A stretch of DNA of 64,000 nt from the human T2T-CHM13v2.0 reference genome, Homo sapiens: assembly GCF_009914755.1 (NCBI RefSeq), contig NC_060926.1, one strand, 5' to 3'. The number at the start of each line of letters is the position of its first letter. Position 1 is the stretch's first letter. The translations under genes were made by a program, and so were the position numbers. Below the pieces are notes generated by a model. It made no database searches. It saw nothing but the letters and a program-made list of their open reading frames with translations, and was not told where the DNA came from. Of this stretch, positions 10,588 through 57,682 are shown piece by piece.

Positions 10588-12441
10588 AAGATTCATAACT
10601 CTACAGAAAGATGTAGCATTACAGAAAGATTCATAACTCTACAGAAAGATGTAGCATTACAGAAAGATTCATAACTCTACAGAAAGATGTAGCATTACAG
10701 AAAGATTCATAACTCTACAGAAAGAGGTAGCATTACAGAAAGATTCATAACTCTACAGAAAGATGTAGCATTACAGAAAGATTCATAACTCTACAGAAAG
10801 ATGTAGCATTACAGAAAGATTCATAACTCTACAGAAAGAGGTAGCATTACAGAAAGATTCATAACTCTACAGAAAGAGGTAGCATTACAGAAAGATTCAT
10901 AACTCTACAGAAAGATGTAGCATTACAGAAAGATTCATAACTCTACAGAAAGAGGTAGCATTACAGAAAGATTCATAACTCTACAGAAAGATGTAGCATT
11001 ACAGAAAGATTCATAACTCTACAGAAAGATGTAGCATTACAGAAAGATTCATAACTCTACAGAAAGATGTAGCATTACAGAAAGATTCATAACTCTACAG
11101 AAAGATGTAGCATTACAGAAAGATTCATAACTCTACAGAAAGATGTAGCATTACAGAAAGATTCATAACTCTACAGAAAGATGTAGCATTACAGAAAGAT
11201 TCATAACTCTACAGAAAGATGTAGCATTACAGAAAGATTCATAACTCTACAGAAAGAGGTAGCATTACAGAAAGATTCATAACTCTACAGAAAGAGGTAG
11301 CATTACAGAAAGATTCATAACTCTACAGAAAGACGTAGCATTACAGAAAGATTCATAACTCTACAGAAAGACGTAGCATTACAGAAAGATTCATAACTCT
11401 ACAGAAAGACGTAGCATTACAGAAAGATTCATAACTCTACAGAAAGATGTAGCATTACAGAAAGATTCATAACTCTACAGAAAGATGTAGCATTACAGAA
11501 AGATTCATAACTCTACAGAAAGATGTAGCATTACAGAAAGATTCATAACTCTACAGAAAGAGGTAGCATTACAGAAAGATTCATAACTCTACAGAAAGAG
11601 GTAGCATTACAGAAAGATTCATAACTCTACAGAAAGATGTAGCATTACAGAAAGATTCATAACTCTACAGAAAGAGGTAGCATTACAGAAAGATTCATAA
11701 CTCTACAGAAAGAGGTAGCATTACAGAAAGATTCATAACTCTACAGAAAGAGGTAGCATTACAGAAAGATTCATAACTCTACAGAAAGATGTAGCATTAC
11801 AGAAAGATTCATAACTCTACAGAAAGATGTAGCATTACAGAAAGATTCATAACTCTACAGAAAGAGGTAGCATTACAGAAAGATTCATAACTCTACAGAA
11901 AGAGGTAGCATTACAGAAAGATTCATAACTCTACAGAAAGAGGTAGCATTACAGAAAGATTCATAACTCTACAGAAAGAGGTAGCATTACAGAAAGATTC
12001 ATAACTCTACAGAAAGAGGTAGCATTACAGAAAGATTCATAACTCTACAGAAAGAGGTAGCATTACAGAAAGATTCATAACTCTACAGAAAGAGGTAGCA
12101 TTACAGAAAGATTCATAACTCTACAGAAAGAGGTAGCATTACAGAAAGATTCATAACTCTACAGAAAGAGGTAGCATTACAGAAAGATTCATAACTCTAC
12201 AGAAAGAGGTAGCATTACAGAAAGATTCATAACTCTACAGAAAGATGTAGCATTACAGAAAGATTCATAACTCTACAGAAAGATGTAGCATTACAGAAAG
12301 ATTCATAACTCTACAGAAAGATGTAGCATTACAGAAAGATTCATAACTACAGAAAGATGTAGCATTACAGAAAGATTCATAACTCTACAGAAAGATGTAG
12401 CATTACAGAAAGATTCATAACTCTACAGAAAGATGTAGCAT
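10588..12441 (+). repeat. Minisatellite/VNTR, 38-bp unit GATTCATAACTCTACAGAAAGA[T/G/C]GTAGCATTACAGAAA, ~49 copies
   Basis: Direct count; period 38 (G10590 to G10628); one variable position; one unit with a 2-bp deletion near 12347. Confidence 0.98.
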
Positions 12442-35149: not shown

Positions 35150-35590
35150 ACGGTCGGGAGTGAACCCGCCCAGGGTGGGCTTCCAGTCACCCGCACATAT
35201 GCGGGGCACTGGCCGCCCATCCCTGCCAGGCCCCGAGGATGCCCGCGCTCGTCCTCGGCGTCGCGGGTTGGGCGCGCTCCCGGGCGCATTCCCGGCCGGG
35301 CAGCCCCTCCTCCCTCGTCCTTAGCCCAGGGGCCGGCGCCTCCCCGCCTCGCGCGGACTGTCTCGTGCGGGCAGCTGCGGGCGCACCTGGACCCTCGCAA
35401 GGCCCGGGCGGCGCCGATCCCCGCGGGACGCGCTGCGCTCGGGGCCTCCCGCCTCCCCCCCTGCCCCAGCCGCCCCCCGGCCGCGCGGCGCCCCGCACCC
35501 TGCAGGGACGGCTGCCGCATCGCTGGGACAAACTCGGCAGCGGAGGCAAAGTTATTTCCCCTCCCAGGCAGCGGGATTCCGACTGGCAAG
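35150..35590 (+). promoter_or_regulatory. FBLN7: FBLN7 CpG-island promoter and 5'UTR (island continues through the VNTR to ~37700)
   Basis: Very high GC and CpG density, GC-box-like motifs, no TATA box, directly upstream of a good Kozak ATG (gcaagATGG). Confidence 0.85.
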
Positions 35591-35665
35591 ATGGTGCCCA
35601 GCTCTCCGCGCGCGCTCTTCCTTCTGCTCCTGATCCTCGCCTGCCCCGAGCCGCGGGCTTCCCAG
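35591..35665 (+). CDS. FBLN7: FBLN7 (fibulin-7) exon 1 coding part: signal peptide MVPSSPRALFLLLLILACPEPRASQ
   Basis: ATG 35591, hydrophobic signal peptide, donor CAG|GTCAGT at 35666; phase 0 join to exon 2. Confidence 0.95.
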
Positions 35666-37195
35666 GTCAGTGTCCCTCCCGCCTCTCTCCAGGCCAGTGT
35701 CCCTCCCGCCTCTCTCCAGGCCAGTGTCCCTCCCGCCTCTCTCCAGGCCAGCGTCCCTCCCGCCTCTCTCCCCTGTCCCTCCCGCCTCTCTCCCCTGTCC
35801 CTCCCGCCTCTCTCCAGGTCAGTGTCCCTCCCGCCTCTGTCCCCTGTCCCGCGCGCCTCTCTCCACGCCAGTGTCCCTCCCGCCTCTCTCCAGGCCAGCG
35901 TCCCTCCCGCCTCTCTCCAGGCCAGCGTCCCTCCCGCCTCTCTCCAGGTCAGCGTCCCTCCCGCCTCTCTCCAGGCCAGCGTCCCTCCCGCCTCTCTCCA
36001 GGTCAGCGTCCCTCCCGCCTCTCTCCAGGCCAGTGTCCCTCCCGCCTCTCTCCAGGCCAGCCAGTGTCCCTCCCGCCTCTCTCCACGCCAGTGTCCCTCC
36101 CGCCTCTCTCCAGGCCAGTGTCCCTCCCGCCTCTCTCCAGGCCAGTGTCCTTCACGCCTCTCTCCAGGTCAGTGTCCCTCCCGCCTCTCTCCAGGCCAGC
36201 GTCCCTCCCGCCTCTCTCCAGGCCAGCGTCCCTCCCGCCTCTCTCCAGGTCAGCGTCCCTCCCGCCTCTCTCCAGGCCAGCGTCCCTCCCGCCTCTCTCC
36301 ACGCCAGTGTCCCTCCCGCCTCTCTCCAGGTCAGTGTCCCTCCCGCCTCTCTCCAGGCCAGTGTCCCTCCCGCCTCTCTCCAGGCCAGTGTCCCTCACGC
36401 CTCTCTCCAGGTCAGTGTCCCTCACGCCTCTCTCCAGGCTAGTGTCCCTCCCGCCTCTCTCCAGGCCAGCGTCCCTCCCGCCTCTCTCCAGGTCAGCGTC
36501 CCTCCCGCCTCTCTCCAGGCCAGCGTCCCTCCCGCCTCTCTCCACGCCAGTGTCCCTCCCGCCTCTCTCCAGGTCAGTGTCCCTCCCGCCTCTCTCCACG
36601 CCAGTGTCCCTCCCGCCTCTCTCCAGGCCAGTGTCCCTCCCGCCTCTCTCCAGGCCAGTGTCCCTCCCGCCTCTCTCCACGCCAGTGTCCCTCCCGCCTC
36701 TCTCCAGGCCAGTGTCCCTCCCGCCTCTCTCCCCTGTCCCGCGCGCCTCTCTCCATGCCAGTGTCCCTCCCGCCTCTCTCCACGCCAGTGTCCCTCCCGC
36801 CTCTCTCCAGGCCAGCGTCCCTCCCGCCTCTCTCCAGGTCAGCGTCCCTCCCGCCTCTCTCCAGGCCAGCGTCCCTCCCGCCTCTCTCCACGCCAGCGTC
36901 CCTCCCGCCTCTCTCCACGCCAGCGTCCCTCCCGCCTCTCTCCACGCCAGTGTCCCTCCCGCCTCTCTCCACGCCAGTGTCCCTCCCGCCTCTCTCCAGG
37001 CCAGCGTCCCTCCCGCCTCTCTCCAGGCCAGTGTCCCTCCCGCCTCTCTCCCCTGTCCCGCGCGCCTCTCTCCACGCCAGTGTCCCTCCCGCCTCTCTCC
37101 AGGTCAGTGTCCCTCCCGCCTCTCTCCAGGTCAGTGTCCCTCCTGCCTCTCTCCAGGCCAGCATCCCTCCTTCCTCTCTCCCCTGTCCCGCGCGC
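35661..37195 (+). repeat. GC-rich VNTR, 27-bp unit G[T/C]CAG[T/C]GTCCCTCCCGCCTCTCTCCA[G/C], ~57 copies with a few 22-bp variant units
   Basis: Direct inspection; period 27 (35666, 35693, 35720, 35747); the first unit overlaps the exon-1 donor. Confidence 0.98.
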
Positions 37196-39582
37196 AGGGG
37201 AGGCAGCACCAAGGCTGGGGGACCCGGGCTTGCCACTTTCCACTCGGATGCCTGGGTTGAGAGCTCGGAGCGATGCCTGGGCTGGGGTTCAGTTTTCAGA
37301 GAGAGGTGCAGGGTCCCCCACCTGTCACCTCAGATGCATCGCTGGCCGGGCCCCTGGGAGGACCCGGGCTGGGCTGCGAAAGCGTCGGTCCATTGTGGGC
37401 GAGGACTCCACGTGAGCACCGCCGGGAGGAAGAAGATTTCTCAGGGAGCTATGAGACATTGGTCTTTCCTGGGTCTCCATGAGAGCTCCAGGTCACCTAA
37501 TTAGCTTAGAGAACGTCCCCGCCCTCCAAACTCCGACATTTAAATTTCCAACCGAAGTATCAGAACACTCACGGGACTTTCTCAGCAGTTTGTGGCATTT
37601 CCCAGGCAGAGGTGGCCCGGGAGGTTTCCGAAGCGGTCCCTTCCCGAGCCGGCGAGGCCCTGGATGTGCGACTACATTTTCTTAAACACATATACAGGCG
37701 GCTTGCTGTTTAATTTTTCTGTTCTTGCCGTTGGCATTTGTTCGAATCTCACCGGATTTATTTGTTTAATACTTGACCAGATTCGCTTTTATGTTAACCA
37801 TTAGCAACTGATTTTTAAAATTAAGGCGAGAACTTGAATTGCCGAGTCCGGGACCCACATCCAGCAGAGTAGCCCTGGCAAGCCAGGGTGAGGGGCCCGG
37901 CCATGGACTGCCGACCCCGCTACCTGCACAATACCAACAGCGGTGGGCAGCGGAGAGCCTGCACACGGAGTGCCTGGTGCGCCTCAGGCTCCCTGCAGGG
38001 CATCTTCCAGTCACTTCATTCCCGGAGCTACCCTGTGAAGTGGGGACTGTTACCCCCATTTTGCAGATGATGAAAGTGAGGCCCAGGGAGGATGAGATGT
38101 ATTCAAGGTCACACAACCAGAAATGAGCGGAATAAACCCAGTCTCTCTTGTTGGGCTCCAAGATTTCTTCCTTGCCTGCAGACACTTGCCCATACTCCCT
38201 GGCCAGAGACTGACTTCCTGGGCCAGGCAGGCATGCCCATGGCCACCTAGAGGCCCCTACGGTGCAGGAAGGGATTCCAGGCAGGCAGAATTTGGCTCAG
38301 ACGAGACGTGGTGATGTTAGTGCAGAAGGTAGTGAGGGGGCACCACAGGGAGATACTCAGTGACCAGGCAGCAGAGGCCCAGTTTGGGGCCACGCTAAAC
38401 CCACCCAACAGAGCAATGGGGTCTCCTATCAACTTTGCAGGTTACAGAACAAAGTAAAACCCCACCTCAGACCTTGAGCCCAATGCCAGAAGCATAGGTG
38501 GGTACATCCCTAAGGCGGCTCCCCAGCCTAGGCTCCAAGGAGGCAGCGTGGACAGGATGTGTGATGAGATGCGTGAGAACCAGGCCCTGCCATTGTGTGA
38601 CTTTTGCTGCTCGGGGAATGAGGTAAACACCTGTCTCCTGAGGTTACCTAGAAACCAGGTGAGACCGAAGCACTTGTCATATGTTTGCAGCTGCTGCAGA
38701 GGCAAAGTGAGCTCACCCAGACTCTGTACCCGGAACTTCTGGGTCCAATCCCTGTCCCGCCACATCCAGTCTTTCTCAAGTTTCTTATCCTCTAAACCTT
38801 ACTGTCTTGAGCTGCAAAACACCTGTCTTAGGTGCTTTGTGAGGGGAAAGGGAACAAAAGAGATTGCCCATAGATGGTCATTTAAAAATTCTAGTGAGAC
38901 TCTCTTTCACCCACAGTCCTATGTGGCCAGGGGTCTCCCCTTCTCCACCCTCAACCCTGTCCGGGCAAGCGTAAAGGGTGAATTGTAAAGGAGGCCCCAG
39001 GGCCTGGTGCATGCTGGAACAAGCATTACCTGACTCCTTCCACGTTTTGGGTCTCTGCTCAAATAAGTAATCCTCTGCAGAGGCCTTCCAGAACTCTCTC
39101 TACTCTAAACAAGTCCTCTCTCTGCCCCTGTATTTCCTGTTTGGGTCCCCTGAAGGGCTCTGGCGTAGTACCGATCATCATTTGTAATGATATATTTTGG
39201 TAGGTTTCAAGTTTATTGTCTGTATTCCCACTATAGGGCTCCAGGGGCAGGGACCCACCTGGCCTTAAAGCAGTGTGAGCCCTGGGACTCCTGAACCCAC
39301 CAGTAAGAGCCATTGGTTGGTGGAGACTCAGCAAGTTTGGAGAATGAGCTGTGCCCACAGGATCATATCTTGCCATGGAGGAGATGAGATGGGTCAGGTG
39401 GGAGGCACTGAGGACAGGCTTCCTCGACCAAGGCCCATTGACACAGCAACTCCAAGGAGCTCTAGATGGAGACTGCGGTGCTCCTCATGGGGGTGGGCCA
39501 CAACCCTGTCTGGGGTTCCCGTTTGCTGGCAAATGTGCTTGCTTTGCGTTTTAGGAGACAGCGCAAGAGTAATATCATGAGC

Positions 39583-56391: not shown

Positions 56392-57116
<725 letters not shown>

Positions 57117-57455: not shown

Positions 57456-57682
57456 TGTGCGTGCACACACACGCGCACGCACACGCACACGCAGACGCAC
57501 GCACACGCACACACGCACGCACACACACAAGCACGCGCACACGCACGCACACGCACACACGCGCACGCACACACGCACGCACACGCAGACGCACACGCAC
57601 GCACACGCACACACGCACGCACACACACGCACACACAAGCACGCATACACGCACGCACACGCGCACACACACACACACACAC
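57456..57682 (+). repeat. (CA/CG)n alternating purine-pyrimidine compound microsatellite
   Basis: cacgcacacgcacac... runs ending in (CA)n. Confidence 0.93.

What the first reader, a model, noticed from the sequence alone, without database searches (positions are those of the whole stretch)
35661..37195. A VNTR built from the FBLN7 exon-1 splice donor: tandem array of AG|GT splice junctions
Seen: the array starts exactly at the true donor (CAG|GTCAGT, 35666). The unit GTCAGTGTCCCTCCCGCCTCTCTCCAG begins with a 5' splice site and ends with a ~17-nt pyrimidine tract plus CAG, so every junction is an acceptor abutting a donor. There are 12 extra GT donors. Exact CAG|GTCAGT copies sit at 35818, 36168, 36330, 36411, 36573, 37103 and 37130. 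CAG|GTCAGC copies sit at 35948, 36002, 36249, 36492 and 36838. Most other junctions are CAG|GC, and some have the AG destroyed (CAC|GC). Established: YAG|GT is the recursive-splicing (zero-length exon) motif, and duplicated donors compete for U1. Inference: the two most variable positions toggle donor (GT/GC) and acceptor (AG/AC) activity. The allele's variant string could therefore tune correct FBLN7 splicing, recursive removal of the 21-kb intron, or diversion to nonsense-mediated decay (NMD). I know of no description of this, but cannot search.
Basis: partly seen in the sequence, partly recalled or inferred. Interest (0 to 1): 0.85.

Follow-up and report, generated by a model that had tools for sequence, protein, structure and literature searches.

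The report
FBLN7 intron-1 minisatellite repeating the splice donor
A 57-copy, 27-base repeat begins at the end of FBLN7 exon 1 and so copies the exon's splice signal into the intron; repeats of this kind are known in other human genes, where the extra signals are mostly silent.

Summary
A 27-bp tandem array occupies 35662-37181 (57.1 copies). Its first unit is the last 4 bp of FBLN7 exon 1 plus the first 23 bp of intron 1. Twelve further CAG|GT junctions sit at the stated coordinates.

- The kind is already in print. Minisatellites whose first monomer spans an exon-intron boundary are described for F7, IFI6, CBS, LMNB2 and PDGF (PMC1557585) and for ABCA7 (PMC5954066).
- Tandem arrays of dual-use AGGT sites are described for UBC and VCX3A (PMC10809524).
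- In F7 the repeated donors are functional but silent, and the most upstream one wins.
- This locus is already catalogued as a length-polymorphic VNTR. It has one weak expression association: one GTEx tissue, p 7.6e-5.
- The GT/GC and AG/AC pattern reflects block duplication (243-bp higher-order repeat, GT every 81 bp), not position-specific toggling.
- No RefSeq transcript in the hub table has an exon boundary in the array.

Best reading: an ordinary donor-spanning intronic VNTR, removed with intron 1, with at most low-level cryptic donor use. I class it as a new member of a known kind, of modest interest. No RNA data could be examined.

The parts
35320..35665 (+). FBLN7 exon 1 (coding 35591-35665, 25 codons, signal-peptide region). 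Its last 4 nt, CCAG, are the first 4 nt of the array.
   Evidence: Hub gene table; translation; TRF start at 35662.
35662..37181 (+). 27-bp minisatellite (VNTR), 57.1 copies, consensus CCAGGCCAGTGTCCCTCCCGCCTCTCT. GC 0.71, CpG o/e 0.67, continuous with the promoter CpG island.
35666..35692 (+). First unit, holding the authentic donor CAG|GTCAGT.
   Evidence: hub annotation of the exon end at 35665.
35693..35817 (+). Units 2-6. All lack GT (three GCCAG heads, then two 22-nt units). The donor-proximal 152 nt therefore hold no pseudo-donor.
36168..36599 (+). Block where CAG|GT recurs every third unit (81 bp: 36168, 36249, 36330, 36411, 36492, 36573). It lies inside a 9-unit (243-bp) higher-order repeat.
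37184..37195 (+). Partial end unit TGTCCCGCGCGC running into unique intron. The same variant recurs inside the array at 35845, 36735 and 37054, so 3'-flank sequence was carried into larger duplicated blocks.
56503..56662 (+). FBLN7 exon 2, whose acceptor is the annotated partner of the donor at 35665.
   Evidence: Hub gene table.

Best explanation
This is an ordinary, length-polymorphic, GC-rich intronic minisatellite of a known kind: one whose first monomer spans an exon-intron boundary.

Origin. It arose by tandem duplication of a 27-bp segment made of the last 4 bp of FBLN7 exon 1 (CCAG) and the first 23 bp of intron 1. Every copy therefore carried CAG|GT. The donor happens to be CAG|GT and the intron start happens to be C/T-rich, so each junction also looks like an acceptor. 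That look is a by-product of the duplication, not a designed feature.

Later history. A GT-to-GC variant and a CAG-to-CAC variant spread by block duplication. Only 13 of 57 units now keep GT.

Behaviour in the transcript. The cap-proximal, most upstream donor (35666) is used and the whole array leaves with intron 1, as shown experimentally for the F7 intron-7 minisatellite. I expect the downstream copies to be silent or used at a low level. In this allele, 10 of the 12 would then give frameshifted or stop-containing mRNAs, and 2 would add an in-frame Pro/Ser-rich insert after the signal peptide.

Status of each step. Shown: the anatomy, the copy census, the frame consequences, the length polymorphism and a weak length-expression association. 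Inferred: the origin, the dominance of the upstream donor, and the silence of the copies.
For: Anatomy.
- TRF starts at 35662, 4 nt before the exon end.

Precedent for silence.
- In LMNB2 and PDGF only the authentic donor is used. [quoted passage not shown]
- In ABCA7 one cryptic donor, one unit into the intron, is used.
- In FBLN7 units 2-6 have no GT. The positions most likely to be used by those precedents are therefore disarmed, and the first pseudo-donor is 152 nt downstream.

Annotation. The hub's RefSeq table lists no exon boundary inside the array for any of the 10 FBLN7 transcripts.

Block-duplication history.
- In the indel-free stretch 36087-36734, identity at a lag of 9 units is 96.5% (14 mismatches of 405).
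- At a lag of 1 unit it is 94.5% (34 of 621).
- GT recurs with an 81-bp period.

Polymorphism.
- Lu 2021 supplementary table: ref.len 1627, asm.len 1370.8, asm.len.std 119.7, 17 assemblies.
- This assembly has 1520 bp.

Expression.
- Lu 2023 supplement lists it as a length eVNTR for FBLN7 in Heart_Atrial_Appendage only: slope -0.207, p 7.6e-5, q 0.025.
- It is not an eQTL in the 2021 table.

Weak acceptor features.
- 10 of 12 AG|GT junctions have as their only branch candidate within 18-40 nt an A in GCCAG, with no U at -2.
- 35818 has no A within 67 nt.
- The tract is C-rich, with 5-7 T in 20 nt.
Against: - No RNA evidence was examined. The silence of the copies rests on analogy and on the absence of annotated isoforms.
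- Transcripts using 10 of the 12 copies would carry premature stops and could be hidden by NMD.
- The seven exact copies are as complementary to U1 as the authentic donor, at -9.9 kcal/mol. That is the second strongest of the 7 annotated donors in the window.
- Duan et al. report that AGGT sites work as both donor and acceptor more often than expected, and that such introns are enriched in tandem repeats.
- ABCA7, IFI6 and CBS show that some pseudo-donor use does occur.
- The top four variable columns (+6, -1, +2, -2) all lie in the 9-nt donor window. Naive chance is about 0.007, computed after the fact. This could reflect selection on splice signals rather than drift.
- A negative length-expression association exists, though it is weak.
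Confidence: 0.6

Rival explanations
1. The repeated AG|GT junctions are active splice sites. Downstream donors compete for U1, junctions act as recursive (zero-length-exon) sites, and the allele's string of GT/GC and AG/AC variants tunes correct splicing against NMD-bound products.
For: - 12 AG|GT junctions exist. Seven have the same 11-mer and the same U1 duplex energy as the authentic donor.
- 10 of 12 extensions carry premature stops.
- ABCA7 shows use of one cryptic donor and splicing that depends on VNTR length.
- Dual-specific AGGT sites are used more often than expected and are enriched in tandem repeats.
- There is a weak negative length-expression association in one tissue.
- Variation is concentrated at the junction columns.
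Against: - F7 experiments show that identical downstream donors stay silent.
- No annotated isoform uses the array (hub table).
- The variant string is explained by block duplication.
- The 26 CAG|GC junctions share the upstream acceptor signals and would be dead ends if array acceptors were efficient (inference).
- Branch candidates are poor.
- The review passage read describes recursive sites as belonging to very long introns. Here the sites lie 152-1464 nt into a 20.8-kb intron.
- No motif-composition signal for this locus appears in the held part of the Lu 2023 eMotif table, a file that was cut when stored.
Confidence: 0.15
2. The array works at the RNA level as a protein-binding platform rather than through its splice motifs. 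Its 56 CUCUCU and 111 UCCC motifs would load PTBP1 and poly(C)-binding proteins just downstream of the authentic donor. This would reinforce the upstream donor and mask the copies, and copy number would set the strength of the effect.
For: -
- Hamid and Makeyev (PMC4222953, abstract read) show that Ptbp1 bound to pyrimidine-rich sequence between an upstream and a downstream 5' splice site activates the upstream site. Loss of Ptbp1 shifts use to the downstream site, with NMD.
- That CUCUCU is a PTB motif is recalled, not taken from a call.
Against: - No binding data were seen.
- The F7 work found no autonomous regulatory element in the neighbouring intron sequence and no cell-type dependence (section headings; Discussion).
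- The Hps1 case concerns a weak upstream site, whereas here the sites are equal.
Confidence: 0.12
3. Any effect is at the DNA or chromatin level. The array extends the promoter CpG island by 1.5 kb, abuts a RefSeq-annotated enhancer (37029-37742), and puts G-runs on the template strand. Its length would then alter methylation, transcription-factor occupancy or early elongation, not splicing.
For: - GC 0.71 and CpG o/e 0.67 across the array, continuous with the 0.79-0.83 GC promoter.
- 59 two-tetrad G-run motifs on the minus strand and 0 on the plus strand.
- The enhancer annotation is in the hub table.
- The published association is with length, not with motif composition.
Against: - The association is weak: one tissue, p 7.6e-5.
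- Two neighbouring VNTRs carry far stronger FBLN7 signals (p 2.2e-25 and 8.9e-22), so linkage could explain it.
- There are no canonical three-tetrad G4 motifs and no match to the recalled recombination-hotspot 13-mer.
Confidence: 0.2

Closest known systems
F7 (coagulation factor VII) intron-7 37-bp minisatellite (Borensztajn et al. 2006, PMC1557585)
   Same: The first monomer is the last 4 bp of the exon plus the start of the intron. The authentic donor is followed by copies identical in sequence. The array is polymorphic in copy number.
   Different: - F7 has 5-9 copies, and its donor is UGG/gugggu, so no AG|GT junction is formed. All copies keep the donor, and the exon is internal.
- FBLN7 has 57 copies after a first exon. 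Its donor is CAG|GT, so junctions also look like acceptors. Only 13 of 57 units keep GT.
ABCA7 intron-18 25-bp VNTR (De Roeck et al. 2018, PMC5954066)
   Same: A C-rich VNTR that starts at the exon's donor GT. A cryptic donor one unit into the intron is used. VNTR length is linked to splicing and expression.
   Different: In this same assembly the ABCA7 array has 88.6 copies. Of its unit heads, 91 of 91 keep GT and none forms AGGT. U1 duplex energies are weaker, at -1.7 to -5.8 against -9.9 kcal/mol for FBLN7.
Tandem arrays of dual-specific AGGT splice sites in repeats: UBC, VCX3A (Duan et al. 2024, PMC10809524)
   Same: The AGGT core recurs at unit boundaries of a tandem repeat whose unit length is a multiple of 3. 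The authors argue that such expansions are tolerated because they can be spliced out.
   Different: In UBC and VCX3A the sites are seen in use in RNA and lie in coding repeats. For FBLN7 no use is documented, the array is intronic, and the gene is not named in that paper's 2 held supplementary files.
Vertebrate recursive splice sites (Sibley et al. 2015, as cited in PMC13196383 and PMC10809524)
   Same: A pyrimidine tract followed by YAG|GT, which regenerates a donor after the first splicing step.
   Different: Recursive sites are described for very long introns of long genes (passage). Here 12 sites sit within 1.5 kb of the donor in a 20.8-kb intron, with poor branch candidates. Conservation and RNA evidence were not testable.

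Membership tests
Minisatellite whose first monomer spans an exon-intron boundary (F7, IFI6, CBS, LMNB2, PDGF, ABCA7 type) | The first repeat unit contains the exon-intron junction. | tested here: met
   TRF starts at 35662 and the exon ends at 35665 (hub table).
Minisatellite whose first monomer spans an exon-intron boundary (F7, IFI6, CBS, LMNB2, PDGF, ABCA7 type) | The donor sequence is reiterated in the intron. | tested here: met
   There are 7 exact and 5 near copies of CAG|GTCAGT. However, 44 of 57 units have lost GT.
Minisatellite whose first monomer spans an exon-intron boundary (F7, IFI6, CBS, LMNB2, PDGF, ABCA7 type) | Copy number is polymorphic. | tested here: met
   Published table: ref.len 1627, mean 1370.8, s.d. 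119.7 bp over 17 assemblies. This assembly has 1520 bp. The 106-bp offset of the next VNTR downstream agrees.
Minisatellite whose first monomer spans an exon-intron boundary (F7, IFI6, CBS, LMNB2, PDGF, ABCA7 type) | The authentic, most upstream donor is used, and the copies are silent or only the proximal ones are used. | not testable with these tools
   Only indirect evidence: no RefSeq exon boundary lies in the array (hub table).
Tandem array of dual-specific (AGGT) splice sites (Duan et al. 2024) | An AGGT core recurs at repeat-unit boundaries. | tested here: met
   There are 13 CAGGT including the authentic donor.
Tandem array of dual-specific (AGGT) splice sites (Duan et al. 2024) | The same site is seen used as both a 5' and a 3' splice site in RNA. 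| not testable with these tools
   No RNA data were available. FBLN7 is absent from the paper's 2 held supplementary files.
Recursive splice site | A pyrimidine tract plus YAG directly followed by a GT donor motif. | tested here: met
   16-18 pyrimidines of 20 upstream, CAG|GTCAG(T/C).
Recursive splice site | A usable branch point upstream of the AG. | tested here: inconclusive
   For 10 of 12 junctions the only A at 18-40 nt is in GCCAG. One junction has it in GTCAG. 35818 has none within 67 nt. Two junctions also have a (C/T)TCAC A at 14 nt.
Recursive splice site | Located deep in a very long intron, with sawtooth or lariat RNA evidence and conservation. | tested here: not met
   Location was tested and not met: the sites lie 152-1464 nt from the donor in a 20,837-nt intron. 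RNA evidence and conservation were not testable.

The most novel reading that the evidence does not exclude
The FBLN7 array would be a tunable splice-decoy. The number and placement of intact AG|GT units in a person's allele would set how many transcripts are diverted to exon-1 extensions. In this allele those extensions are mostly NMD substrates, and two are in-frame forms carrying a 94- or 112-residue Pro/Ser-rich insert after the signal peptide. Alternatively, the intact units would set how often the array is removed stepwise through dual-use sites. FBLN7 output would then depend on VNTR composition rather than on length alone. The loss of GT in 44 of 57 units, including all five units next to the authentic donor, would be the trace of selection against strong decoys. 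This contrasts with ABCA7, where 91 of 91 weaker copies keep GT.
Probability: 0.12. Interest if true: 0.55.

Novelty: new member of a known kind. Interest (0 to 1): 0.3.

Why it matters
As it stands, this adds FBLN7 to a short list of human genes with a minisatellite that reiterates a splice donor. Its particular features are:
- a strong CAG|GT donor;
- dual-use-looking junctions;
- a first exon;
- 57 units, most of them disarmed.

It would be a good natural test case for two questions. How is the most upstream of many identical donors chosen? Are strong decoy donors purged from such arrays?

If allele composition affected FBLN7 output, it would bear on traits linked to this extracellular-matrix gene. 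Nothing seen here shows that.

Tried and rejected
- Main-text search for FBLN7 with VNTR: 0 papers.
- FBLN7 with 'tandem repeat': 3 papers, none on this array judging by titles and abstract openings only.
- FBLN7 with sQTL: 2 papers, unrelated by title and abstract opening.
- FBLN7 with splice: 55 papers, 30 listed. I opened two, PMC5007100 and PMC7238533. Neither mentions the array. The intronic SNP in the first lies by my rough estimate tens of kb downstream.
- FBLN7 is absent from the held supplements of PMC10809524, PMC11701250 and PMC8024321.
- Hamanaka et al. (PMC10078293): FBLN7 is not in the main text. Its supplements were not searched.
- A recalled recombination-hotspot 13-mer: 0 matches in the array on either strand.
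- Canonical three-tetrad G4 motifs: 0.
- Coding potential: long stop-free frames exist on both strands across the array. This is expected for a low-complexity 27-nt repeat and I do not take it as evidence of a gene.
- MaxEntScan and SpliceAI scores could not be computed, because no models are on the machine. I used U1 duplex energy and comparison with the 7 annotated donors and 7 annotated acceptors of the window instead.
- Other primates and other human haplotypes could not be examined with the collections on hand.
Full report
**1. What is in the sequence**

Tandem Repeats Finder reports one array at 35662-37181: period 27, 57.1 copies, 91% matches, 3% indels, score 2395. The consensus is CCAGGCCAGTGTCCCTCCCGCCTCTCT.

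A 23-nt core of the unit, with up to 3 mismatches, occurs 53 times in the 64-kb window. All 53 lie inside 35670-37156. None of 100 dinucleotide-preserving shuffles gave a match.

In the whole assembly, a 243-bp piece of the array finds matches of 89% identity or more only at this locus. Six weak matches (68-72%) lie on four other contigs.

Cutting the array from the annotated donor gives 57 units: 51 of 27 nt, 5 of 22 nt and 1 of 31 nt. A partial end unit runs into unique sequence.

- CAG|GTCAGT at 35666 (the authentic donor), 35818, 36168, 36330, 36411, 36573, 37103 and 37130;
- CAG|GTCAGC at 35948, 36002, 36249, 36492 and 36838.

The 56 internal junctions are 26 CAG|GC, 12 CAG|GT, 12 CAC|GC, 1 CAT|GC and 5 CCC|TG.

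**2. How the array is built**

The array starts 4 nt before the end of exon 1. The repeated segment is therefore the last 4 bp of the exon (CCAG) plus the first 23 bp of the intron.

Any tandem duplication of such a segment places CAG|GT at each junction. The first 23 nt of this intron are C/T-rich, with unit positions 8-25 holding 17 pyrimidines of 18. The junction therefore also looks like a pyrimidine tract followed by AG. I read the 'acceptor abutting donor' design as a by-product of duplicating a CAG|GT boundary. That reading is an inference.

The end-unit variant TGTCCCGCGCGC recurs inside the array at 35845, 36735 and 37054. So 3'-flank sequence was swept into larger duplicated blocks.

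**3. Variation among units**

Among the 51 27-nt units, the most variable columns are:
- +6: T31/C20, 0.97 bit;
- -1: G37/C14, 0.85 bit;
- +2: T13/C38, 0.82 bit;
- -2: A46/C5, 0.46 bit.

All four columns lie in the 9-nt donor window. The naive chance of that is about 0.007, but I computed it after seeing the data.

The variants are not independent:
- GT units recur every 81 bp from 36168 to 36573.
- In the indel-free stretch 36087-36734, identity is highest at a lag of 9 units: 96.5%, or 14 mismatches of 405. At a lag of 1 unit it is 94.5%, or 34 of 621.

The variant string is thus a few old variants copied in blocks, not repeated toggling.

Both T-to-C changes, at +2 and +6, go from a weak to a strong base pair. 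GC-biased gene conversion would favour that direction. It is a neutral alternative to selection, and it is my inference.

**4. Splice-signal quality**

*Donors.* The authentic donor and its seven exact copies share the 11-mer CAGGUCAGUGU.
- Eight of nine positions match the consensus.
- The computed duplex with the 5' end of U1 snRNA (a recalled short motif) is -9.9 kcal/mol.
- That is the second strongest of the 7 annotated donors in the window, whose range is -5.4 to -11.4.
- The five GTCAGC copies give -6.9.

*Acceptors.* The 20 nt upstream of the four junctions examined hold 16-18 pyrimidines but only 5-7 T. The 7 annotated acceptors hold 10-19 pyrimidines and 6-15 T.

*Branch candidates* are poor:
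- For 10 of the 12 AG|GT junctions, the only A at 18-40 nt sits in GCCAG.
- One junction has it in GTCAG.
- The junction at 35818 has no A within 67 nt.
- Two junctions also have a (C/T)TCAC A at 14 nt.

*'Destroyed' acceptors.* All 13 CAC|GC or CAT|GC junctions keep another CAG 5 nt downstream, behind the same tract. Losing the junction AG therefore does not remove acceptor-like signals.

*Dead ends.* The 26 CAG|GC junctions have upstream signals like those of the 12 CAG|GT junctions. If array acceptors were efficient, these more numerous junctions would join exon 1 to sequence that lacks a donor. This argues that array acceptors are weak (inference).

**5. Consequences if a copy were used**

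I extended exon 1 to each of the 12 extra donors and joined it to exons 2 and 3.
- Two donors give in-frame products with no stop: 35948 (+282 nt) and 36002 (+336 nt).
- Ten give a frameshift or an in-frame stop.

Diversion to NMD is therefore likely for most copies but not for all.

**6. What is in print**

*The class of array.* The Introduction of Borensztajn et al. [quoted passage not shown] It gives these examples:
- IFI6/6-16: 25 pseudo-sites, of which the two most proximal are used.
- CBS intron 13: two pseudo-sites are used.
- LMNB2 and PDGF: only the authentic site is used.
- F7 intron 7: the first 37-bp monomer is the last 4 bp of exon 7 plus 33 bp of intron.

With 50 constructs, the authors show that the F7 pseudo-sites are functional but silent, and that the most upstream site is chosen in all cell types tested.

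*ABCA7.* De Roeck et al. 2018 (PMC5954066, passages read) describe a C-rich 25-bp VNTR in ABCA7 that starts at the exon-18 donor. A cryptic donor one unit into the intron is used, and splicing depends on length.

*Dual-use sites.* Duan et al. 2024 (PMC10809524; abstract and two sections read) describe dual-specific AGGT sites, a tandem array of them in UBC, and an excess of such introns in tandem repeats.

*PTB.* Hamid and Makeyev 2014 (PMC4222953, abstract only) show that Ptbp1 bound between two 5' splice sites favours the upstream one.

*This array by name.* I found no paper that discusses the FBLN7 array itself. FBLN7 with VNTR gave 0 papers, and searches gave nothing relevant. The searches cover main text only.

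**7. The locus in VNTR catalogues**

In Lu et al. 2021 (PMC8275641, supplementary file 2; the row was seen and the header), the VNTR at GRCh38 chr2:112138725-112140352 lies 340 bp after the FBLN7 gene start. In the window the array lies 342 bp after the start. The row gives ref.len 1627, asm.len 1370.8, asm.len.std 119.7, 17 assemblies, and eqtl False.

In Lu et al. 2023 (PMC10234305, supplementary file 3), the same locus is a length eVNTR for FBLN7 in Heart_Atrial_Appendage only: slope -0.207, p 7.6e-5, q 0.025. It does not appear in the held part of that paper's eMotif file, which was cut when stored. One file and the PDF were not readable.

Two neighbouring VNTRs carry far stronger FBLN7 eMotif signals:
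- window 10588-12441: p 2.2e-25;
- window 57463-57682: p 8.9e-22.

Linkage could therefore explain the weak length signal.

The third VNTR lies 106 bp nearer the gene start in this assembly than in GRCh38. That agrees with an array about 4 units shorter here.

**8. Comparison with ABCA7 in the same assembly**

I located ABCA7 exons 17 and 20 with the primers printed in the paper and fetched the interval.

The ABCA7 array has 88.6 copies of 25 bp. Of its unit heads, 91 of 91 keep GT and none forms AGGT. U1 duplex energies are -1.7 to -5.8 kcal/mol.

FBLN7 differs in three ways:
- its donor is stronger;
- its junctions are AG|GT;
- only 13 of 57 units keep GT, and units 2-6, next to the authentic donor, keep none.

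This fits selection against strong, proximal decoys, but it does not show it.

**9. Verdict**

It is wrong about novelty, and its functional claims are untested.

The best-supported reading is an ordinary donor-spanning intronic VNTR in which the most upstream donor is used and the array leaves with intron 1. Cryptic use would be at most low-level. My confidence is 0.6.

The decoy or recursion model keeps about 0.12-0.15. No RNA data, other haplotypes or other primates could be examined here.

Noticed in passing
window 10588-12441: A 38-bp VNTR (48.8 copies, 98% matches) lies in a TMEM87B intron. It corresponds to the Lu 2023 locus at GRCh38 chr2:112113609-112115500. A motif of that locus is associated with FBLN7 expression in tibial artery (p 2.2e-25), far more strongly than the array under study.
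   Followed up: partly
window 57463-57682: A (CACGCA)n-type array lies in FBLN7 intron 2. It corresponds to GRCh38 chr2:112160634-112160865 and is an eMotif/eVNTR for FBLN7 in several tissues (for example fibroblasts, p 8.9e-22).
   Followed up: partly
L008 603-2902 (G000:C19, ABCA7 intron 18): In this assembly the ABCA7 VNTR has 88.6 copies of 25 bp. All 91 unit heads keep GT and none forms AGGT.
   Followed up: yes
G000:C17:44694912-44695424, C22:50915321-50915435, C23:174593-174824, C24:178511-178715: These stretches match the array weakly (68-72% identity). I presume they are other C-rich minisatellites, but I did not read them.
   Followed up: no
window 36141-36167, 36384-36437: Units 19, 28 and 29 carry a C-to-A change that makes TTCAC or CTCAC. 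This is the best branch-point-like pentamer in the array. In two cases it lies 14 nt upstream of an AG|GT junction (36168, 36411).
   Followed up: partly
window 35662-37195, minus strand: There are 59 two-tetrad G-run motifs on the template strand and none on the coding strand. There is no canonical three-tetrad motif on either strand.
   Followed up: partly
window 36438-36443: The single GCTAGT unit head creates the only in-frame stop met when exon 1 is read through the array, at codon 283 of the read-through.
   Followed up: yes
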